Below, piece after piece: positions 3,192 through 10,259 of a stretch of 10,259 bases of DNA (its first letter is position 1; each line of letters opens with the position of its first letter). The stretch lies in the UHGV virus genome UHGV-1653917; one strand, given 5' to 3'. A program made the position numbers and the translations under genes. Source of the DNA: a virus. Below the pieces are notes generated by a model. That model did no database searches. It saw only the letters and a program-made list of their open reading frames with translations, and was not told the DNA's origin.

Positions 3192-3614
3192 ATGTTCCTG
3201 AAAACCGAATCATTTGAACATAACGGCGTGACCGTCACGCTTTCTGAACTGTCAGCCCTGCAGCGTATTGAGCATCTCGCCCTGATGAAACAGCAGGCAG
3301 AACAGGCGGAGTCAGACAGCAACCGGCAGGTTACTGTGGAAGACGCCATCAGAACCGGTGCTTTTGTGGTGGCGATGTCCCTGTGGCATAACCATCCGCA
3401 GAAGACAAAGCAGCCTTCCATGAATGAAGCCGTTAAACAGATTGAGCAGGAAGTGCTTACCACCTGGCCCGCGGAGGCAATTTCTCATGCTGAAAACGTG
3501 GTGTACCGGCTGTCCGGTATGTATGGGTTTGTGGTGAATGATGCCCCTGACCAGGCAGAGGACTCCGGGCCTGCAGAGCCTGTTTCTGCGGGAAAGTGTT
3601 CGACGGTGAGCTGA
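3192..3614 (+). CDS. G: Tail assembly chaperone (lambda gpG), 140 aa
   Basis: ATG at 3192 preceded by ggagag. The translation MFLKTESFEHNGVTVTLSELSALQRIEHLALMKQQAEQ... matches lambda gpG as I recall it, and the slippery heptamer sits near its 3' end. Confidence 0.92.
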   Translation: MFLKTESFEHNGVTVTLSELSALQRIEHLALMKQQAEQAESDSNRQVTVEDAIRTGAFVVAMSLWHNHPQKTKQPSMNEAVKQIEQEVLTTWPAEAISHAENVVYRLSGMYGFVVNDAPDQAEDSGPAEPVSAGKCSTVS

Positions 3615-4030
3615 GTTTTGCCCTGAAACTGGCGCGAGAGATGGGGCGACCTGACTGGCGCGCCATGCTTGCCGGGATGTCATCCACGGAGTATGCCGAC
3701 TGGCACCGCTTTTACAGTACCCATTATTTTCATGATGTTCTGCTGGATATGCACTTTTCCGGGCTGACGTACACTGTGCTCAGCCTGTTTTTCAGCGATC
3801 CGGATATGCATCCGCTGGATTTCAGTTTGCTGAACCGGCGTGAGGATGACGAAGAGCCTGAAGATGATGTGCTGATGCAGAAAGCGGCAGGGCTTACCGG
3901 AGGCGTCCGCTTTGACCCGGACGGAAATGAAGTTATCCCCGCTTCCCCGGATATGGCGGGCATGACGGAGGATGACGTAATGCTGATGACAGTATCAGAA
4001 GGGATCGCAGGAGGAGTCCGGTATGGCTGA
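3192..4030 (+). CDS. T: Tail assembly chaperone G-T fusion made by -1 programmed ribosomal frameshift at 3590-3596 (T portion 3596-4030)
   Basis: The G frame reads GGA AAG at 3591-3596; a -1 slip on G_GGA_AAG puts the ribosome into the ORF at 3596-4030 (VFDGELSFALKLAREMGRPDWRAML...), which matches lambda gpT as I recall it. The T frame has no plausible independent start or RBS and ends overlapping the H start. Confidence 0.88.
3590..3596 (+). promoter_or_regulatory. Slippery heptanucleotide G_GGA_AAG for the -1 frameshift producing G-T
   Basis: The heptamer has the X_XXY_YYZ form in the correct phase relative to the G frame (codons GGA 3591-3593, AAG 3594-3596), at the position known for the lambda G-T frameshift. 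Confidence 0.88.
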
Positions 4031-6584
4031 ACCGGTAGGCGATCTGGTCGTTGATTTAAGTCTGGATGCGGCCAGATTTGACGAGCAGATGGCCAGAGTC
4101 AGGCGTCATTTTTCCGGTACGGAAAGTGATGCGAAAAAAACAGCGGCAGTCGTTGAACAGTCGCTGAGCCGACAGGCGCTGGCTGCACAGAAAGCGGGGA
4201 TTTCCGTCGGGCAGTATAAAGCCGCCATGCGTATGCTGCCTGCACAGTTCACCGACGTGGCCACGCAGCTTGCAGGCGGGCAAAGCCCGTGGCTGATCCT
4301 GCTGCAACAGGGTGGTCAGGTTAAGGACTCCTTCGGCGGGATGATCCCCATGTTCCGGGGGCTTGCCGGTGCGATCACCCTGCCGATGGTCGGGGCCACC
4401 TCGCTGGCGGTGGCGACCGGTGCGCTGGCGTATGCCTGGTATCAGGGTAACTCAACCCTGTCCGATTTCAACAAAACGCTGGTCCTTTCCGGCAATCAGT
4501 CGGGTCTGACGGCAGATCGTATGCTGGTCCTGTCCAGAGCCGGGCAGGCGGCAGGGCTGACGTTTAACCAGACCAGCGAGTCACTCAGCGCACTGGTTAA
4601 GGCGGGAGTAAGCGGTGAGGCTCAGATTGCATCCATCAGCCAGAGTGTGGCGCGTTTCTCCTCTGCATCCGGCGTGGAGGTGGACAAGGTCGCTGAAGCC
4701 TTCGGGAAGCTGACCACTGACCCGACGTCGGGGCTGACGGCGATGGCGCGCCAGTTCCATAACGTAACGGCGGAGCAGATTGCGTATGTTGCTCAGTTGC
4801 AGCGTTCCGGCGATGAATCCGGGGCATTGCAGGCGGCGAACGAGGCCGCAACGAAAGGGTTTGATGACCAGACCCGACGCCTGAAAGAGAACATGGGCAC
4901 GCTGGAAACCTGGGCAGACAGGACAGCACGGGCATTCAAATCCATGTGGGATGCGGTGCTGGATATTGGTCGTCCTGATACCGCTCAGGAGATGCTGATT
5001 AAGGCAGAGGCTGCGTTTAAGAAAGCGGACGACATCTGGAATCTGCGCAAGGATGATTATTTTGTTAACGATGAAGCGCGGGCGCGTTACTGGGATGATC
5101 GTGAAAAGGCCCGTCTTGCGCTTGAAGCCGCCCGAAAGAAGGCTGAACAGCAGAGTCAACAGGACAAAAATGCGCAGCAGCAGAGCGATACCGAAGCATC
5201 ACGGCTGAAATATACCGAAGAGGCGCAGAAGGCTTACGAACGGCTGCAGACACCGCTGGAGAAATATACCGCCCGTCAGGAAGAACTGAACAAGGCACTG
5301 AAAGACGGGAAAATCCTGCAGGCAGATTACAACACGCTGATGGCGGCGGCGAAAAAGGATTATGAAGCGACGCTGAAAAAGCCGAAACAGTCCGGCGTGA
5401 AGGTGTCTGCGGGCGATCGTCAGGAAGACAGTGCTCATGCTGCCCTGCTGACGCTTCAGGCTGAACTCCGGACGCTGGAGAAGCATGCCGGAGCAAATGA
5501 GAAAATCAGCCAGCAGCGCCGGGATTTGTGGAAGGCGGAGAGTCAGTTCGCGGTACTGGAGGAGGCGGCGCAACGTCGCCAGCTGTCTGCACAGGAGAAA
5601 TCCCTGCTGGCGCATAAAGATGAGACGCTGGAGTACAAACGCCAGCTGGCTGCACTTGGCGACAAGGTTACGTATCAGGAGCGCCTGAACGCGCTGGCGC
5701 AGCAGGCGGATAAATTCGCACAGCAGCAACGGGCAAAACGGGCCGCTATTGATGCGAAAAGCCGGGGGCTGACTGACCGGCAGGCAGAACGGGAAGCCAC
5801 GGAACAGCGCCTGAAGGAACAGTATGGCGATAATCCTCTGGCGCTGAATAACGTCATGTCAGAGCAGAAAAAGACCTGGGCGGCTGAAGACCTGCTTCGC
5901 GGGAACTGGATGGCAGGCCTGAAGTCCGGCTGGAGTGAGTGGGAAGAGAGTGCCACGGACAGTATGTCGCAGGTTAAAAGTGCTGCCACGCAGACCTTTG
6001 ATGGTATTGCGCAGAATATGGCGGCGATGCTGACCGGCAGTGAACAGAACTGGCGCAGCTTCACCCGTTCCGTGCTGTCCATGATGACAGAAATTCTGCT
6101 TAAGCAGGCAATGGTGGGGATTGTCGGGAGTATCGGCAGCGCCATTGGCGGGGCTGTTGGTGGCGGCGCATCCGCGTCAGGCGGTACAGCCATTCAGGCC
6201 GCTGCGGCGAAATTCCATTTTGCAACCGGAGGATTTACGGGAACCGGCGGCAAATATGAGCCAGCGGGGATTGTTCACCGTGGTGAGTTTGTCTTCACGA
6301 AGGAGGCAACCAGCCGGATTGGCGTGGGAAATCTCTACCGGCTGATGCGCGGCTATGCCACCGGCGGTTATGTCGGTACACCGGGCAGTCTGGCTGACAG
6401 CCGGTCGCAGGCGTCCGGGACGTTTGAGCAGAATAACCATGTGGTGATTAACAACGACGGCACGAACGGGCAGATAGGTCCGGCTGCTCTGAAGGCGGTG
6501 TATGACATGGCCCGCAAGGGTGCCCGTGATGAAATTCAGACACAGATGCGTGATGGTGGCCTGTTCTCCGGAGGTGGACGATGA
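4023..6584 (+). CDS. H: Tail tape measure protein (lambda gpH), 853 aa
   Basis: ATG at 4023 overlaps the end of the T frame. The 853-aa length equals lambda gpH. It has a long coiled-coil/alpha-helical charged middle region (many E/K/Q/A residues), hydrophobic segments near the N-terminus, and a Gly-rich C-terminal region (VGIVGSIGSAIGGAVGGGASASGG). The sequence matches lambda H as I recall it. Confidence 0.97.
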   Translation: MAEPVGDLVVDLSLDAARFDEQMARVRRHFSGTESDAKKTAAVVEQSLSRQALAAQKAGISVGQYKAAMRMLPAQFTDVATQLAGGQSPWLILLQQGGQVKDSFGGMIPMFRGLAGAITLPMVGATSLAVATGALAYAWYQGNSTLSDFNKTLVLSGNQSGLTADRMLVLSRAGQAAGLTFNQTSESLSALVKAGVSGEAQIASISQSVARFSSASGVEVDKVAEAFGKLTTDPTSGLTAMARQFHNVTAEQIAYVAQLQRSGDESGALQAANEAATKGFDDQTRRLKENMGTLETWADRTARAFKSMWDAVLDIGRPDTAQEMLIKAEAAFKKADDIWNLRKDDYFVNDEARARYWDDREKARLALEAARKKAEQQSQQDKNAQQQSDTEASRLKYTEEAQKAYERLQTPLEKYTARQEELNKALKDGKILQADYNTLMAAAKKDYEATLKKPKQSGVKVSAGDRQEDSAHAALLTLQAELRTLEKHAGANEKISQQRRDLWKAESQFAVLEEAAQRRQLSAQEKSLLAHKDETLEYKRQLAALGDKVTYQERLNALAQQADKFAQQQRAKRAAIDAKSRGLTDRQAEREATEQRLKEQYGDNPLALNNVMSEQKKTWAAEDLLRGNWMAGLKSGWSEWEESATDSMSQVKSAATQTFDGIAQNMAAMLTGSEQNWRSFTRSVLSMMTEILLKQAMVGIVGSIGSAIGGAVGGGASASGGTAIQAAAAKFHFATGGFTGTGGKYEPAGIVHRGEFVFTKEATSRIGVGNLYRLMRGYATGGYVGTPGSLADSRSQASGTFEQNNHVVINNDGTNGQIGPAALKAVYDMARKGARDEIQTQMRDGGLFSGGGR

Positions 6585-6910: not shown

Positions 6911-7608
6911 TGCAGGATATCCGGCAGGAAACACTGAATGAATGCACCCGTGCGGAGCAGTCGGCCAGCGTGGTGCTCTGGGAAATCGATCTGACAGAGG
7001 TTGGTGGAGAACGTTATTTTTTCTGTAATGAGCAGAACGAAAAAGGTGAGCCGGTCACCTGGCAGGGGCGGCAGTATCAGGCGTATCCCATTCAGGGGAG
7101 TGGTTTTGAACTGAATGGCAAAGGCACCAGTACGCGCCCCACGCTGACGGTTTCTAACCTGTACGGCATGGTCACCGGGATGGCGGAAGATCTGCAGAGT
7201 CTGGTCGGCGGAACGGTGGTCAGGCGTAAGGTTTACGCCCGTTTTCTGGATGCGGTGAACTTCGTCAACGGAAACAGAGACGCCGATCCGGAGCAGGAGG
7301 TGATCAGCCGCTGGCGCATTGAGCAGTGCAGCGAACTGAGCGCGGTCAGTGCCTCCTTTGTACTGTCCACGCCGACGGAAACGGACGGCGCTGTTTTTCC
7401 GGGACGTATCATGCTGGCCAACACCTGCACCTGGACCTATCGCGGCGATGAGTGCGGTTATCACGGTCCGGCGGTCGCGGATGAATATGACCAGCCAACG
7501 TCCGATATCACGAAGGATAAATGCAGCAAATGCCTGAGCGGTTGTAAGTTCCGCAATAACGTCGGCAACTTTGGCGGCTTCCTTTCCATTAACAAACTTT
7601 CGCAGTAA
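6910..7608 (+). CDS. L: Tail tip protein (lambda gpL), 232 aa, with Fe-S-binding Cys cluster
   Basis: TGATG overlap with the M stop (6908-6912). The translation MQDIRQETLNECTRAEQSASVVLWEIDLTEVGGERYFFCNEQ... matches lambda gpL, including the C-terminal cysteines (CTWTYRGDECGY...CSKCLSGC). Confidence 0.93.
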   Translation: MQDIRQETLNECTRAEQSASVVLWEIDLTEVGGERYFFCNEQNEKGEPVTWQGRQYQAYPIQGSGFELNGKGTSTRPTLTVSNLYGMVTGMAEDLQSLVGGTVVRRKVYARFLDAVNFVNGNRDADPEQEVISRWRIEQCSELSAVSASFVLSTPTETDGAVFPGRIMLANTCTWTYRGDECGYHGPAVADEYDQPTSDITKDKCSKCLSGCKFRNNVGNFGGFLSINKLSQ

Positions 7609-7612
7609 TCCC

Positions 7613-8356
7613 ATGACAGAGACAGAATCAGCGATTCTGGCGCACGCCCGGCGATGTGCGCCAGCGGAGTCGTGCGGCTTCGTGGTAAGCACGCCGGAGG
7701 GGGAAAGATATTTCCCCTGCGTGAATATCTCCGGTGAGCCGGAGGCGTATTTCCGGATGGCTCCGGAGGACTGGCTGCAGGCAGAGATGCAGGGTGAGAT
7801 TGTGGCGCTGGTCCACAGCCACCCCGGTGGTCTGCCCTGGCTGAGTGAGGCTGACCGGCGGCTGCAGGTGCAGAGTGATTTGCCGTGGTTGCTGGTCTGC
7901 CGGGGGGCGATTCATAAGTTCCGCTGTGTGCCGCATCTCACCGGGCGGCGCTTTGAGCACGGGGTGACGGACTGTTACACGCTGTTCCGGGACGCTTACC
8001 ATCTGGCGGGGATTGAGATGCCGGACTTTCATCGTGAGGATGACTGGTGGCGTAACGGCCAGAATCTCTATCTTGATAATCTGGAGGCCACAGGGCTGTA
8101 TCAGGTGCCGTTGTCATCAGCACAACCGGGCGATGTGCTGCTGTGCTGTTTTGGTTCATCGGTGCCGAATCATGCCGCCATTTACTGTGGTGATGGCGAG
8201 CTGCTGCACCATATTCCTGAACAACTGAGCAAACGAGAGAGGTATACCGACAAATGGCAGCGACGCACACACTCCCTCTGGCGTCACCGGGCATGGCGCG
8301 CATCTGCCTTTACGGGGATTTACAACGATTTGGTCGCCGCATCGACCTTCGTGTGA
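7613..8356 (+). CDS. K: Tail tip assembly protein (lambda gpK) with JAB/MPN metalloprotease-like and NlpC/P60-like domains; long form 247 aa from ATG 7613, classical shorter form from ATG 7757
   Basis: The frame is open from 7571 to TGA at 8354-8356. ATG 7613 lies 5 nt after the L stop and has a weak SD; ATG 7757 (MAPEDWLQ..) has ggagg 11 nt upstream and gives the 199-aa product of the classical lambda annotation. The JAMM-like motif HSHPGGLPWLSEAD and a downstream Cys/His region (DCYTLF ... NHAAIYCGDGELLHH) are present. Confidence 0.85.
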   Translation: MTETESAILAHARRCAPAESCGFVVSTPEGERYFPCVNISGEPEAYFRMAPEDWLQAEMQGEIVALVHSHPGGLPWLSEADRRLQVQSDLPWLLVCRGAIHKFRCVPHLTGRRFEHGVTDCYTLFRDAYHLAGIEMPDFHREDDWWRNGQNLYLDNLEATGLYQVPLSSAQPGDVLLCCFGSSVPNHAAIYCGDGELLHHIPEQLSKRERYTDKWQRRTHSLWRHRAWRASAFTGIYNDLVAASTFV

Positions 8357-8925
8357 AAACGGGGGCTGAAGCCATCCGGGCGCTGGCCACACAGCTCCCG
8401 GCGTTTCGTCAGAAACTGAGCGACGGCTGGTATCAGGTACGGATTGCCGGGCGGGACGTCAGCACGTCCGGGTTAACGGCGCAGTTACATGAGACTCTGC
8501 CTGATGGCGCTGTGATTCATATTGTTCCCAGAGTCGCCGGGGCCAAGTCAGGTGGCGTATTCCAGATTGTCCTGGGGGCTGCCGCCATTGCCGGATCATT
8601 CTTTACCGCCGGAGCCACCCTTGCAGCATGGGGGGCAGCCATTGGGGCCGGTGGTATGACCGGCATCCTGTTTTCTCTCGGTGCCAGTATGGTGCTCGGT
8701 GGTGTGGCGCAGATGCTGGCACCGAAAGCCAGAACTCCCCGTACACAGACAACGGATAACGGCAAACAGAACACCTATTTCTCCTCACTGGATAACATGG
8801 TTGCCCAGGGCAATGTTCTGCCGGTTCTGTACGGTGAAATGCGCGTGGGGTCACGCGTGGTTTCTCAGGAGATCAGCACGGCAGACGAAGGGGATGGTGG
8901 TCAGGTTGTGGTGATTGGTCGCTGA
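8254..8925 (+). CDS. I: Tail tip assembly protein (lambda gpI), 223 aa
   Basis: ATG at 8254 preceded by gagagagg. It overlaps the 3' end of K by 103 nt in a different frame, as in lambda. The translation MAATHTLPLASPGMARICLYGDLQRF... followed by a Gly/Ala-rich hydrophobic segment matches lambda gpI. Confidence 0.92.
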   Translation: MAATHTLPLASPGMARICLYGDLQRFGRRIDLRVKTGAEAIRALATQLPAFRQKLSDGWYQVRIAGRDVSTSGLTAQLHETLPDGAVIHIVPRVAGAKSGGVFQIVLGAAAIAGSFFTAGATLAAWGAAIGAGGMTGILFSLGASMVLGGVAQMLAPKARTPRTQTTDNGKQNTYFSSLDNMVAQGNVLPVLYGEMRVGSRVVSQEISTADEGDGGQVVVIGR

Positions 8926-8943
8926 TGAAAAACGTTTTATGTG

Positions 8944-8966
8944 AAACCGCCTCCGGGCGGTTTTAT
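8944..8966 (+). terminator. Terminator-like hairpin between I and J
   Basis: aaaccgcc (8944-8951), loop tccg, ggcggttt (8956-8963) is followed by the T-rich run ttttatcgtttat. It is a perfect inverted repeat; function is inferred. Confidence 0.4.
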
Positions 8967-8985
8967 CGTTTATGGAGCATGACGA

Positions 8986-10259
8986 ATGGGTAAAGGCAGC
9001 AGTAAGGGGCATACCCCGCGCGAAGCGAAGGACAACCTGAAGTCCACGCAGCTGCTGAGTGTGATCGATGCCATCAGCGAAGGGCCGGTTGAAGGTCCGG
9101 TGGATGGATTAAAAAGCGTGCTGCTGAACAGTACGCCGGTGCTGGACAGTGAGGGGAATACCAATATATCCGGCGTCACGGTGGTGTTCCGGGCCGGTGA
9201 GCAGGAGCAGACTCCGCCGGAGGGATTTGAATCCTCCGGTTCCGAGACGGTGCTGGGTACGGAAGTGAAATATGACACGCCGATCACCCGCACCATCACG
9301 TCGGCAAACATCGACCGTCTGCGCTTTACCTTCGGTGTGCAGGCACTGGTGGAAACCACCTCAAAGGGGGACAGGAATCCATCGGAAGTCCGCCTGCTGG
9401 TTCAGATTCAACGTAACGGTGGCTGGGTGACGGAAAAAGACATCACCATTAAGGGCAAAACCACCTCGCAGTATCTGGCCTCGGTGGTGGTGGATAACCT
9501 GCCGCCGCGCCCGTTTAATATCCGGATGCGCAGAATGACGCCGGACAGCACCACAGACCAGCTGCAGAACAAAACGCTCTGGTCGTCATACACCGAAATC
9601 ATCGATGTGAAACAGTGCTACCCGAACACGGCACTGGTCGGCGTGCAGGTGGACTCGGAACAGTTCGGCAGCCAGCAGGTGAGCCGTAATTATCATCTTC
9701 GCGGGCGCATTCTGCAGGTGCCGTCGAACTATAACCCGCAGACGCGGCAATACAGCGGTATCTGGGACGGAACGTTTAAGCCAGCATACAGCAACAACAT
9801 GGCCTGGTGTCTGTGGGATATGCTGACCCATCCGCGCTACGGCATGGGGAAGCGTCTCGGTGCGGCGGATGTGGACAAATGGGCGCTGTATGTCATCGGC
9901 CAGAATTGCGACCAGTCGGTGCCGGATGGCTTTGGTGGCACGGAGCCGCGCATCACCTGTAATGCCTGGCTGACCACACAGCGCAAGGCGTGGGATGTTC
10001 TCAGTGATTTCTGCTCGGCGATGCGCTGTATGCCGGTATGGAACGGGCAGACGCTGACGTTCGTGCAGGACCGACCGTCGGATAAGGTGTGGACCTATAA
10101 CCGCAGTAATGTGGTGATGCCGGATGATGGTGCGCCGTTCCGCTACAGCTTCAGCGCCCTGAAAGACCGCCATAATGCTGTTGAGGTGAACTGGATTGAC
10201 CCGGATAACGGCTGGGAGACGGCGACAGAGCTTGTGGAGGACACGCAGGCCATTGCCCG
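8986..10259 (+). CDS. J: Tail tip / central fibre host-specificity protein (lambda gpJ), N-terminal about 424 aa; 3' end beyond the window
   Basis: ATG at 8986 preceded by ggag. The frame is open to the window end, which is why the ORF track does not list it. The translation MGKGSSKGHTPREAKDNLKSTQLLSVIDAISEGP... matches the lambda gpJ N-terminus as I recall it. Confidence 0.93.
   Translation, partial: MGKGSSKGHTPREAKDNLKSTQLLSVIDAISEGPVEGPVDGLKSVLLNSTPVLDSEGNTNISGVTVVFRAGEQEQTPPEGFESSGSETVLGTEVKYDTPITRTITSANIDRLRFTFGVQALVETTSKGDRNPSEVRLLVQIQRNGGWVTEKDITIKGKTTSQYLASVVVDNLPPRPFNIRMRRMTPDSTTDQLQNKTLWSSYTEIIDVKQCYPNTALVGVQVDSEQFGSQQVSRNYHLRGRILQVPSNYNPQTRQYSGIWDGTFKPAYSNNMAWCLWDMLTHPRYGMGKRLGAADVDKWALYVIGQNCDQSVPDGFGGTEPRITCNAWLTTQRKAWDVLSDFCSAMRCMPVWNGQTLTFVQDRPSDKVWTYNRSNVVMPDDGAPFRYSFSALKDRHNAVEVNWIDPDNGWETATELVEDTQAIA

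What the first reader, a model, noticed from the sequence alone, without database searches (positions are those of the whole stretch)
7613..8925. K-I pair resembles a deubiquitinase-like peptidase plus ubiquitin-like protein, with a 103-nt dual-coding overlap
K carries a JAMM motif (HSHPGGLPWLSEAD) followed by a Cys/His-containing NlpC/P60-like region. I has a compact N-terminal domain, reported as ubiquitin-like, followed by a Gly/Ala-rich hydrophobic tail (FQIVLGAAAIAGSFFTAGATLAAWGAAIGAGG...). The two genes overlap over 8254-8356 in different frames, which constrains both proteins and suggests tight co-regulation. The architecture is recognised in the literature, but its biochemical role in tail tip assembly is still poorly defined.
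Basis: partly seen in the sequence, partly recalled or inferred. Interest (0 to 1): 0.4.

Follow-up and report, generated by a model that had tools for sequence, protein, structure and literature searches.

The report
Lambda tail genes K and I
These are the well-known phage lambda tail-tip genes K, a two-headed protease, and I, a tail-plug protein that starts with a ubiquitin-like domain; they really do share about 100 bases read in two frames, but the architecture was described in 2006, so the finding is correct and ordinary.

Summary

- **Origin.** The window is a lambdoid tail operon, 98.9% identical to phage 21 and 97.1% to lambda.
- **K (7613-8356, 247 aa).** It has a complete JAMM/JAB metalloprotease domain and an NlpC/P60 cysteine peptidase domain. 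Both catalytic sets are conserved in at least 95% of 110 diverse homologues. The predicted structure has pLDDT 97.
- **I (8254-8925, 223 aa).** It is gpI, one residue different from lambda's. It has a MoaD/SAMP-like beta-grasp domain ending in an invariant glycine (G96), a 60-residue uncharged Gly/Ala-rich segment, and the C-terminal plug seen in virion cryo-EM maps.
- **Overlap.** The 103-nt overlap is real, and comparative data show selection on both frames. The ancestral overlap was 58-64 nt. In lambda-like and Morganellaceae prophages the start of I moved 13 codons upstream.
- **Prior literature.** Iyer et al. (2006) described this architecture and proposed that K's JAB domain clips off I's ubiquitin-like domain. 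Later structures resolve only the C-terminal part of gpI (from residue 101 or ~134) and do not find gpK in virions. An F-pyocin preprint shows the N-terminus of the gpI homologue is removed, but the protease has not been shown.
- **New here.** The start migration, and evidence that common annotations (K 199 aa, I 190 aa) truncate both domains.

The parts
7613..8356 (+). Gene K (gpK, tail tip assembly protein K), 247 aa. The ATG lies 4 nt after the stop of L.
   Evidence: The ORF is. Phage 21 annotates the same 744-nt CDS. Codons 9-48 carry the same coding signature as the rest of the gene. AF2 gives pLDDT 96-98 from residue 1.
7622..7906 (+). JAB/MPN+ (JAMM) metalloprotease domain of K, residues 4-98.
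   Evidence: Pfam PF14464, E 7e-14. Foldseek matches PfJAMM1 5ld9 (rmsd 2.6 A over 109 columns), AMSH, Rpn11 and CSN5. The nearest NCBIfam model is 'desampylase', below its cut-off.
7667..7669 (+). Catalytic Glu E19 of the JAMM site. It lies upstream of the start that RefSeq lambda annotates for K.
   Evidence: Conserved in 105 of 110 diverse homologues. Coordinates checked. RefSeq K starts at the equivalent of window 7757.
7814..7855 (+). JAMM motif HSHPGGLPWLSEAD (H68, H70, S78, D81).
   Evidence: Translated. Conservation among 110 homologues: H68 in 107, H70 in 106, S78 in 100 (plus 8 Thr), D81 in 107.
7943..8284 (+). NlpC/P60 (C40) papain-like peptidase domain of K, residues 111-224. The triad is C121 (7973-7975), H187 (8171-8173) and H199 (8207-8209).
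   Evidence: Pfam PF00877, E 5.5e-13. Conservation among 110 homologues: C121 in 105, H187 in 106, H199 in 107. Foldseek matches 4hpe, 9ubf, MepS/Spr and LytE.
8300..8344 (+). C-terminal helix of K (residues 230-244), encoded entirely within gene I. It is absent from the short-K clade.
   Evidence: AF2 predicts a helix at 230-244 with pLDDT about 98. The tail is present only in the lambda-related clade. I's wobble sites are suppressed over this stretch.
8239..8242 (+). GAGG Shine-Dalgarno-like element for the I start at 8254. It is made of K codons E209 and R210, with R210 using AGG.
   Evidence: It is present in lambda-like and Morganellaceae loci and absent from the distant group. Phage 21 annotates an RBS here.
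8254..8925 (+). Gene I (gpI, tail tip assembly / plug protein), 223 aa from M1.
   Evidence: The ORF is. It differs by 1 aa from PDB 8iyk chain I.
8254..8356 (+). K/I dual-coding overlap, 103 nt. I is in the -1 frame relative to K.
   Evidence: The same frame relation holds in 58 of 59 loci with 47-98% K identity. Both frames are constrained.
8293..8295 (+). Internal ATG (M14). It corresponds to the ancestral start of I, still used in distant homologues. In this window it has no Shine-Dalgarno element.
   Evidence: Stop codons lie upstream of it in distant loci, where a TGGAG[GA] SD is formed by K codons W223-R224. Here R224 is CGT.
8293..8544 (+). Ubiquitin-like beta-grasp domain of I (residues 14-97), MoaD/ThiS/SAMP type.
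   Evidence: Pfam PF06805, E 1e-28. Profile hit to MoaD-related 1v8c, E 0.008, followed by MoaD, SAMP1 and ThiS chains.
8539..8556 (+). Junction motif G96-A97-K98-S99-G100-G101. It holds the candidate cleavage sites after A97 or after G101.
   Evidence: Among 116 homologues, G96 is in all 116, A97 in 105 (plus 9 Ser) and G101 in 111. G96-A97 aligns with the C-terminal GG of MoaD. Cryo-EM resolves gpI from residue 101.
8548..8727 (+). Uncharged Gly/Ala-rich hydrophobic segment of I (residues 99-158), corresponding to the two membrane-type helices H1 and H2.
   Evidence: Composition and hydropathy are.
8728..8925 (+). C-terminal plug domain of I (residues 159-223, plus the stop codon). It is the part that binds gpJ and holds the C-terminus of gpH in virions.
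   Evidence: PDB 8iyk and 9e7m. Papers PMC10721106, PMC12617516 and PMC11101478.

Best explanation
This is the gpK/gpI pair of a lambda-type siphophage tail-tip module.

**What I is.** It is made as a precursor with three parts:
- an N-terminal MoaD/SAMP-like ubiquitin-fold domain (residues 14-97) ending in an invariant Gly-Ala/Gly junction;
- two very hydrophobic Gly/Ala-rich helices;
- a C-terminal plug that sits as a trimer inside the gpJ/gpL cone and holds the C-terminus of the tape-measure protein.

**What K is.** It is a non-structural assembly enzyme with two intact active sites, a JAMM zinc metalloprotease of the desampylase/Rpn11 kind and an NlpC/P60 cysteine peptidase.

**Most likely mechanism.** The ubiquitin-like domain keeps the hydrophobic plug precursor soluble and blocks premature docking. 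Once I is seated in the tip, K's JAMM site cuts the linear peptide bond at the end of the beta-grasp (after A97 or after G101), as deubiquitinases process ubiquitin-fusion precursors. The ubiquitin-like domain and K then leave.

**The overlap.** K's C-terminal helix and I's first beta-strand are encoded by the same DNA in two frames, with I's ribosome-binding site inside K. The two genes are therefore inherited together and probably translated in a coupled way.

**Shown here:**
- the domain identities;
- conservation of both catalytic sites and of the junction glycine;
- selection on both frames of the overlap.

**Shown by others:**
- only the C-terminal part of gpI is resolved in virions (from residue 101 or ~134);
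- gpK is not found in virions;
- the N-terminus of the F-pyocin homologue is proteolytically removed.

**Inferred:** that K's JAB domain is the protease, the exact cut site, and the role of the NlpC/P60 domain.
For: **Identity.** The region is 98.9% identical to phage 21 and 97.1% to lambda. I differs by 1 aa from PDB 8iyk_I.

**K.**
- Pfam JAB and NlpC/P60, both above cut-off.
- E19, H68, H70, S78, D81 and C121, H187, H199 are each conserved in at least 95% of 110 homologues of 34-59% identity.
- AF2 gives pLDDT 97.1 and pTM 0.91.
- Foldseek matches PfJAMM1, including its complex with the MoaD-like SAMP2, plus AMSH, Rpn11, CSN5 and MepS-type hydrolases.
- The nearest NCBIfam model for the JAB half is desampylase.

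**I.**
- A profile hits MoaD-related 1v8c (E 0.008), with 'VPRVAG96A97' aligned to MoaD 'PPVAGG'.
- Foldseek top hits are MoaD, SAMP1, CysO, Urm1, SUMO and ubiquitin.
- P92 and G96 are in 116 of 116 homologues and G101 in 111 of 116.

**Literature.**
- Iyer 2006 made the same prediction.
- gpI is resolved from residue 101 or 134/135.
- gpK is absent from virion MS.
- The single gpI peptide in that MS covers 9.87%, which fits only the C-terminal tryptic peptide 202-223.
- In F-pyocin the N-terminus of PA0640 is present in stalled tips and gone from mature particles, and the gpK homologue PA0639 is essential for tip assembly.

**Overlap.** The frame relation is conserved in 58 of 59 loci. Wobble variation is suppressed in both frames.
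Against: - No experiment links K to cleavage of I.
- In the F-pyocin study the N-terminal region of PA0640 persisted in mutants lacking the tape measure, adapter or tube, although PA0639 was present. Cleavage is therefore not a simple consequence of co-expression.
- Recombinant PA0640 lost its N-terminus in E. coli through unknown host proteases.
- The P1 residue aligned with ubiquitin's last Gly is Ala or Ser in I, which is unusual for JAMM enzymes.
- The beta-grasp assignment rests on marginal statistics (E 0.008; Foldseek E 0.011 on a model of pLDDT 42).
- The equally conserved NlpC/P60 site has no assigned substrate.
- The lambda virion MS evidence is a single peptide.
Confidence: 0.55

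Rival explanations
1. I's N-terminal domain is removed, but not by the JAB site. The cut is made by K's NlpC/P60 cysteine peptidase domain or by a host protease, and the JAB domain only binds the ubiquitin-like domain or acts on another substrate.
For: The NlpC/P60 triad is as conserved as the JAMM site. Recombinant PA0640 is trimmed in E. coli by unknown host proteases. [quoted passage not shown] Ala or Ser at the aligned P1 position is atypical for JAMM enzymes.
Against: Pairing of a JAB domain with a ThiS/MoaD-type Ubl is a recurrent, specific association. Desampylase-type JAMMs are structurally the closest to K. The JAMM catalytic residues would not stay invariant if the domain only bound its partner.
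Confidence: 0.2
2. In lambda, I is not cleaved. The ubiquitin-like domain stays attached but is disordered or flexible in the virion, and K acts as a chaperone or on a different target such as the tape-measure protein gpH.
For: Cryo-EM papers describe the N-domain only as 'unresolved'. No lambda study reports a processed gpI. The protease that converts gpH to gpH* is unknown.
Against: The F-pyocin MS shows genuine removal of the N-terminus. A 100-residue domain in three copies would have to fit inside or beside a closed tip lumen. The only gpI peptide in virion MS fits the C-terminus. The invariant Gly junction suggests a processing site.
Confidence: 0.12
3. K is a virion-associated cell-wall hydrolase. 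Its NlpC/P60 domain digests peptidoglycan during DNA injection, as the related peptidase of the Rhodobacter gene transfer agent is thought to do, and the link to I is incidental.
For: Foldseek's best NlpC/P60 matches are cell-wall hydrolases. There is a weak match to TIGR02219 'putative phage cell wall peptidase'. The lambda enzyme that breaches peptidoglycan is unidentified.
Against: gpK is not detected in virions by MS or cryo-EM, nor is PA0639 or pyoF8 in F-pyocins. This view leaves the conserved JAMM site and the conserved adjacency to a Ubl unexplained. The TIGR02219 score of 23 bits is far below its 81.9 cut-off.
Confidence: 0.06
4. The long overlap is an annotation artefact. I really starts at the GTG at 8353 (190 aa), overlapping K by only 4 nt, as PGAP and RAST annotate it.
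For: PGAP and a RAST-style record call this start, and a 2020 review used the 190-aa form.
Against: That start deletes residues 14-33, which include G21 and L23 (116 of 116 homologues) and G27 (115 of 116), and which form the first strand of the Pfam domain. Distant homologues conserve an ATG with an SD at the M14 position. PDB depositors use the 223-aa sequence.
Confidence: 0.02

Closest known systems
Phage lambda gpK (TAPK) and gpI (TAPI), as analysed by Iyer, Burroughs and Aravind 2006 (PMC1779556)
   Same: Same genes: 97-99% DNA identity, and I differs by one residue. Same domain architecture (JAB plus NlpC/P60; Ubl plus Gly-rich linker plus TAPI-C). Same 103-nt overlap as RefSeq lambda 14773-14875.
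   Different: Nothing essential. This copy is nearest to phage 21 and E. coli prophages. RefSeq lambda annotates K 48 codons too short (199 aa), which cuts away part of the JAB domain.
Archaeal desampylases (HvJAMM1, PfJAMM1) with SAMP1/SAMP2, and Rpn11-type processing of ubiquitin precursors (CsRpn11)
   Same: A JAMM metalloprotease paired with a MoaD/ThiS-like beta-grasp protein that ends in a small-residue tail. K's JAB is structurally closest to PfJAMM1 and I's domain to MoaD/SAMP1. CsRpn11 cuts a linear Ub precursor (abstract).
   Different: There is no E1/E2 conjugation machinery, and the Ubl is fused in cis to its 'substrate'. The expected reaction is a one-off maturation cut, not reversible signalling. 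The residue aligned with the last Gly is Ala or Ser. K carries an extra NlpC/P60 domain.
F-type pyocin PA0639 / PA0640 (pyoF8 and the plug protein) of Pseudomonas aeruginosa
   Same: Homologous pair. PA0640 is about 35% identical to I and carries the same VPxxxG[AS]KxxG-LFQxVLGAA junction. Only its C-terminal part is in the particle, its N-terminus is removed proteolytically, and the gpK homologue is essential yet absent from particles.
   Different: It belongs to a bacteriocin, not a phage. The K/I gene junction was not examined there. The authors did not name the protease.
Phage T5 baseplate hub protein pb3 plug domain
   Same: A trimeric plug closes the tube and holds the tape-measure C-terminus. 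It has a hydrophobic stretch proposed to insert in the outer membrane.
   Different: In T5 the plug is an insertion within one large hub protein, with no ubiquitin-like domain and no K-like peptidase.
Lambda G / G-T, the other overlapping pair in the same operon
   Same: Two tail-assembly reading frames share DNA in a -1 relation. The GGGAAAG slippery site is present at 3590-3596.
   Different: G-T is a programmed frameshift that makes a fusion protein. K/I has no conserved slippery heptamer and makes two separate proteins from independent starts.

Membership tests
JAMM/MPN+ (JAB) metalloproteases, Pfam PF14464 | Catalytic motif E ... HxHx7Sx2D | tested here: met
   E19, then H68-S-H70-x7-S78-x2-D81. 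Each residue is conserved in 100-107 of 110 homologues.
JAMM/MPN+ (JAB) metalloproteases, Pfam PF14464 | Profile match above the curated threshold, and the MPN fold | tested here: met
   52.1 bits against a cut-off of 25. The AF2 model (pLDDT 97) matches PfJAMM1, AMSH, Rpn11 and CSN5 at Foldseek probability 1.0.
JAMM/MPN+ (JAB) metalloproteases, Pfam PF14464 | Zinc-dependent (iso)peptidase activity at the C-terminus of a Ubl | not testable with these tools
   Needs biochemistry. No published assay for gpK was found.
NlpC/P60 (MEROPS C40) papain-like peptidases, Pfam PF00877 | Cys-His-His/polar triad in the conserved order, and a profile match | tested here: met
   C121, H187 and H199 are conserved in 105-107 of 110 homologues. 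49.3 bits against a cut-off of 23. Foldseek matches 4hpe, 9ubf, MepS and LytE.
NlpC/P60 (MEROPS C40) papain-like peptidases, Pfam PF00877 | Cell-wall (gamma-D-Glu-mDAP) endopeptidase activity | not testable with these tools
   The substrate is unknown. The match to TIGR02219, 'phage cell wall peptidase', is well below its cut-off (23.3 against 81.9 bits).
Lambda_tail_I, Pfam PF06805 (TAPI) | Profile match above threshold, and position between K and J | tested here: met
   100 bits against a cut-off of 23.8.
Ubiquitin-like beta-grasp superfamily, ThiS/MoaD/SAMP branch | Beta-grasp fold | tested here: met
   A profile of 50 homologues hits MoaD-related 1v8c (E 0.008, full domain), then MoaD 3rpf, SAMP1 2l52, ThiS/MoaD 4n6e and Ta0895. 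Foldseek on the I model puts 1v8c, SAMP1, CysO and MoaD at ranks 1-9. The support is modest: the model has pLDDT 42 overall and 50-59 in the domain, and no Foldseek hit reaches E 0.001.
Ubiquitin-like beta-grasp superfamily, ThiS/MoaD/SAMP branch | Conserved glycine at the C-terminal end of the domain | tested here: met
   G96 is invariant in 116 of 116 homologues and aligns with the penultimate Gly of MoaD 'AGG'. The next residue is Ala (105) or Ser (9), not Gly.
Ubiquitin-like protein modifiers (conjugation systems) | Associated E1-like adenylating enzyme and free C-terminal GG for conjugation | tested here: not met
   The 10.3-kb window holds only head-tail structural genes. The domain is fused in cis to the rest of I. 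It is a ubiquitin-like domain, not a conjugated modifier.
Overlapping (dual-coding) genes | Both reading frames under purifying selection across the shared DNA | tested here: met
   K wobble diversity over I codons 1-13 is the lowest of all 13-codon windows where the M1 start exists: 0.041 against 0.150 in the lambda-like group and 0.285 against 0.535 in Morganellaceae. It is normal where M1 does not exist (0.614 against 0.651). I wobble diversity over K's tail is suppressed in all three groups. These are window ranks, not formal tests.

The most novel reading that the evidence does not exclude
K may be a two-substrate maturation protease for the tail tip. Its JAMM site would remove I's ubiquitin-like domain as a docking checkpoint. 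Its equally conserved NlpC/P60 site would make the long-unexplained cut that converts the tape-measure protein gpH to gpH* and gpHC. That would make lambda K/I a complete, self-contained viral ubiquitin-fold / 'deubiquitinase' maturation system.
Probability: 0.1. Interest if true: 0.6.

Novelty: already known. Interest (0 to 1): 0.3.

Why it matters
The finding adds nothing new about the architecture. What it does show is how accessible an old open question now is.

- **A ready candidate for the unknown protease.** Recent cryo-EM papers on lambda and F-pyocins resolve only the C-terminal part of gpI or its homologue. They do not find gpK in particles, and the protease that trims the plug protein, where it is discussed, is called unknown. 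The 2006 prediction that the neighbouring JAB peptidase does it offers a ready candidate and has not been tested.
- **Annotation errors that hide the domains.** RefSeq lambda K (199 aa) lacks the catalytic Glu of the JAMM site. PGAP's 190-aa I lacks the first strand of the beta-grasp. A 2020 review that used these forms saw neither domain. Anyone cloning K or I for biochemistry needs the 247-aa and 223-aa forms.
- **An example of how overlaps grow.** The start of I migrated from the M14 to the M1 position, replacing one Shine-Dalgarno element built from K codons with another. This lengthened the overlap from about 60 to about 100 nt.

Tried and rejected
1. **AF2 of full-length I** with a 26-sequence alignment gave pLDDT 42. 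It was used only for a cautious Foldseek search.
The last structure job went to K instead.
3. **The search for related loci with a 72-sequence K alignment** failed for lack of a conserved stretch. An 11-sequence alignment worked, but one of its two search patterns lies next to K's tail, so those loci are biased towards the long-tail clade. This was balanced with a separate scan for the short-K clade.
4. **A programmed -1 frameshift making a K-I fusion**, like G-T, was considered because I is in the -1 frame. It was rejected: a canonical X_XXY_YYZ heptamer occurs in only 7 of 59 loci and in no lambda-like one. The K-I and L-K fusion proteins in the databases are singletons.
5. **The GGGAAAG at 7701-7707 inside K** is out of phase with the K codons, and its count is within chance expectation.
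6. **The I start at GTG 8353** was rejected (see the rival explanations).
7. **Virion mass spectrometry for lambda gpI** gave only one peptide, too little to settle whether I is processed.
8. **No structure of K or of a K-I complex exists in the PDB.** The only sequence hit for K is 2kks, a JAB-domain protein.
9. **The K-I complex could not be predicted** with the tools available.
10. **A test of whether JAB presence tracks Ubl presence across phages** was not run, because the locus tools return the nearest relatives, which all have both.
Full report
**What the window is.** The ORF list shows a run of + strand genes typical of a lambdoid head-tail operon, ending in H (4023-6584), M, L, K, I and the start of J. 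DNA from 7500-9000 is 98.9% identical to phage 21 and 97.1% to lambda. It matches 267 phage records and 4409 of 5426 complete E. coli genomes, with a median of three copies per genome. The I protein differs from lambda gpI in PDB 8iyk by one residue.

**Check of the observation.**
- K runs 7613-8356 (247 aa) and I runs 8254-8925 (223 aa).
- They share 8254-8356 (103 nt), with I in the -1 frame relative to K.
- HSHPGGLPWLSEAD is at 7814-7855 and fits HxHx7Sx2D. The catalytic Glu is in PAESCG at 7667-7669.
- Pfam finds Prok-JAB (residues 4-98) and NLPC_P60 (111-224) in K, and Lambda_tail_I (14-97) in I, all above the curated thresholds.
- One correction: the Gly/Ala-rich stretch is internal. Residues 99-158 carry no charged residue, and 27 of the 60 are Gly or Ala. 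A 65-residue C-terminal domain follows.

**K in depth.**
- Phmmer against 1.84 billion cluster representatives gave 2786 relatives.
- In 110 full-length representatives of 34-59% identity, all five JAMM residues and the Cys-His-His triad are each kept in at least 95%. Both active sites are therefore under selection.
- AF2 with a 72-sequence alignment gave pLDDT 97.1 and pTM 0.91.
- Foldseek against the PDB returned two sets of hits, 64 of them at E <= 0.001. One set is NlpC/P60 hydrolases (4hpe, 9ubf, MepS/Spr, LytE). The other is JAMM deubiquitinase-type enzymes (Pyrococcus JAMM1 alone and bound to SAMP2, AMSH, CSN5, Rpn11).
- The nearest NCBIfam model for the N-terminal half is the archaeal desampylase, below its cut-off.
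- RefSeq lambda annotates K as 14276-14875, 199 aa. That starts at the window's ATG 7757 and removes E19 and the first strands of the JAB fold. Codons 9-48 carry a normal coding signature and are confidently modelled. The 247-aa form is therefore the real one.

**I in depth.**
- I aligned 116 I homologues taken from loci found with K.
- Invariant or nearly so: G21, L23, P92, G96 and G108 (116 of 116), G27 (115), A97 (105, plus 9 Ser) and G101 (111).
- The motif VPxxxG[AS][KG]xxG-[LV]xQxxxG marks the junction between the N-domain and the hydrophobic segment. It persists in the two distant PDB homologues, 9l9p and 25vf.
- A profile of the N-domain searched against all PDB sequences finds, after its own family, the Thermus MoaD-related protein 1v8c (E 0.008). 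The match covers the whole domain, with I's 'VPRVAG-A' on MoaD's 'PPVAGG'.
- Next come MoaD 3rpf, SAMP1 2l52, a ThiS/MoaD protein 4n6e and Ta0895. Each alignment ends one residue short of the chain's C-terminus.
- AF2 of full-length I was poor (pLDDT 42). Even so, Foldseek with that model puts 1v8c, SAMP1, CysO and MoaD at ranks 1-9, followed by Urm1, SUMO and ubiquitin.
- Neither line is strong alone. Together they support the beta-grasp assignment that Iyer et al. reached by PSI-BLAST.

**The overlap.** In 58 of 59 non-redundant loci from Enterobacterales, Pasteurellales and Orbales (K identity 47-98%), I is in the same -1 frame. K's stop lies 58-67 nt past a conserved start of the form M-A-x-[IV]-x-[LF]-Y-G, which is M14 in this window.

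Two states exist.
- **Distant group (32 loci).** The I frame has stop codons upstream of M14. K codons W223-R224 are TGG-AG[GA], which forms a Shine-Dalgarno element 8-9 nt before the ATG.
- **Lambda-like and Morganellaceae loci.** R224 is CGN, so that element is gone. A GAGG appears at K codons E209 and the next codon, and K214-W215 (AAA-TGG) supplies an ATG 13 codons upstream. In Morganella, most Providencia and one Xenorhabdus locus the M14 codon has become CTG, so the upstream ATG must be the start there.

The overlap therefore grew from about 60 to 97-103 nt by migration of the start codon.

**Selection on both frames.**
- K's wobble positions are I's first codon positions. Over I codons 1-13 their diversity is the lowest of any 13-codon window of K in the two groups with the M1 start (0.041 against a mean of 0.150; 0.285 against 0.535). 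It is unremarkable in the group without it (0.614 against 0.651).
- I's wobble positions are K's second codon positions. Over K's tail they are suppressed in all three groups (0.139 against 0.323; 0.241 against 0.523; 0.447 against 0.662).
- Within the core overlap the pattern of change follows I's frame, so I is the stronger constraint. K's tail is constrained too, and it is modelled as a confident helix at residues 230-244.
- These are window ranks on related sequences, not formal probabilities. Selection on mRNA structure near the start of I could contribute.
- In a separate environmental clade whose K ends right after '...LRHxSLx', the K/I junction is only 4-26 nt of overlap or a short gap, in varying frames. 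The long overlap is a derived feature of the lambda-related clade.

**Database starts disagree.** Three starts for I circulate: M1 (223 aa; RefSeq lambda, phage 21, PDB), M14 (210 aa, a cluster of 5268 sequences) and GTG 8353 (190 aa; PGAP and a RAST-type record). The last removes the invariant first strand. A 2020 review that worked from K of 199 aa and I of 190 aa reported only 'a peptidase domain' and 'an alpha-beta-alpha-beta motif'.

**What is known and what is not.**
- Iyer, Burroughs and Aravind (2006) identified TAPI as a ThiS/MoaD-like Ubl with a conserved C-terminal glycine and TAPK as JAB plus NlpC/P60. They proposed that the JAB domain releases the Ubl by cutting at that glycine.
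- Cryo-EM of lambda shows a gpI trimer plugging the tip and gripping the C-terminus of gpH. Residues are resolved from 134/135 or from 101, and the N-domain is never seen.
- gpK is not found in virions by MS or in maps.
- The single gpI peptide in virion MS (9.87% coverage) fits only the C-terminal tryptic peptide 202-223.
[quoted passage not shown] Deleting the gpK homologue PA0639 abolishes tips. The authors state that the cleavage mechanism is unknown.
- Another F-pyocin paper also leaves the gpK counterpart unassigned.

**Mechanism.** My best reading, at confidence about 0.55, is the 2006 model refined by these data.
- The MoaD/SAMP-like domain acts as a removable solubility and docking-control module for a very hydrophobic plug precursor.
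- K is a non-structural enzyme. Its desampylase-like JAMM site cuts the linear bond after A97 or G101 once I is seated in the J-L cone.
- The Ubl and K are then lost.

The main doubts are these.
- The cut is evidently gated in F-pyocin: the N-terminus persists without the tape measure, adapter or tube.
- Host proteases can trim the recombinant protein.
- The aligned P1 residue is Ala or Ser.
- The NlpC/P60 site has no substrate assigned.

The rival explanations are scored in their own section.

**Verdict.** The small additions are the start-migration history of the overlap, evidence that both frames are selected, and the demonstration that common annotations truncate both domains. Interest is low to moderate. 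A specialist would not be surprised, but the K-cleaves-I hypothesis is topical, cheap to test and still untested.

Noticed in passing
window 7613-7756; lambda NC_001416 14132-14275: RefSeq lambda annotates K from an internal ATG (199 aa), which removes the first 48 codons including the JAMM catalytic Glu. The 247-aa ORF is the conserved one.
   Followed up: yes
window 8353 (GTG); L164 1154-1726; L002 1855-2427: PGAP and RAST-style annotations start I at a GTG 4 nt before K's stop (190 aa), deleting the invariant first strand of the ubiquitin-like domain. A 210-aa (M14) form is also common in databases.
   Followed up: yes
loci L003-L015, L022, L024, L028, L029, L043, L067 (genome contigs): Copies of K about 98% identical to the window's sit on short contigs, several of them labelled with roughly 1x coverage. 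The host assemblies are unrelated organisms (Neobacillus, Pseudoxanthomonas, Enterococcus, Shewanella, Bradyrhizobium, Kitasatospora, Vibrio and others). This looks like lambda DNA contamination of sequencing libraries.
   Followed up: no
window 8941-8966: A strong hairpin (AAACCGCC-TCCG-GGCGGTTT followed by T-rich sequence; centroid -17.4 kcal/mol, z -2.7) lies in the 60-nt gap between I and J. Phage 21 annotates it as a terminator. The simple terminator scan did not list it.
   Followed up: partly
window 3590-3596: The GGGAAAG slippery heptamer of the G/G-T programmed -1 frameshift is present where the G ORF (3192-3614) and the T frame (3596-4030) overlap.
   Followed up: no
proteins P0016, P0036, P0083, P0118, P0129 (K+I); P0020, P0033, P0046 (L+K): Databases hold fused K-I and L-K proteins, nearly all singletons. 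They are probably frameshift errors or decaying prophages, although Iyer et al. reported genuine TAPI fusions.
   Followed up: partly
L065 (Xenorhabdus kozodoii), I frame: The I reading frame continues for 819 codons, which suggests an I-J fusion of the kind mentioned by Iyer et al.
   Followed up: no
L078 (Mannheimia sp.): This is the only lambda-clade locus where K and I do not overlap. I starts about 380 nt after K's stop, in another frame, yet K keeps its C-terminal tail.
   Followed up: no
alignment A2, I residues 110-135 and the C-terminus: The hydrophobic Gly/Ala segment of I varies in length by up to about 15 residues among close relatives. Many Salmonella homologues carry a 25-40-residue C-terminal extension.
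   Followed up: no
window 7430-7600 (end of L): L ends with a Cys cluster (CTWTYRGDECGY...CSKCLSGCKF), consistent with the published [4Fe-4S] site of gpL.
   Followed up: no
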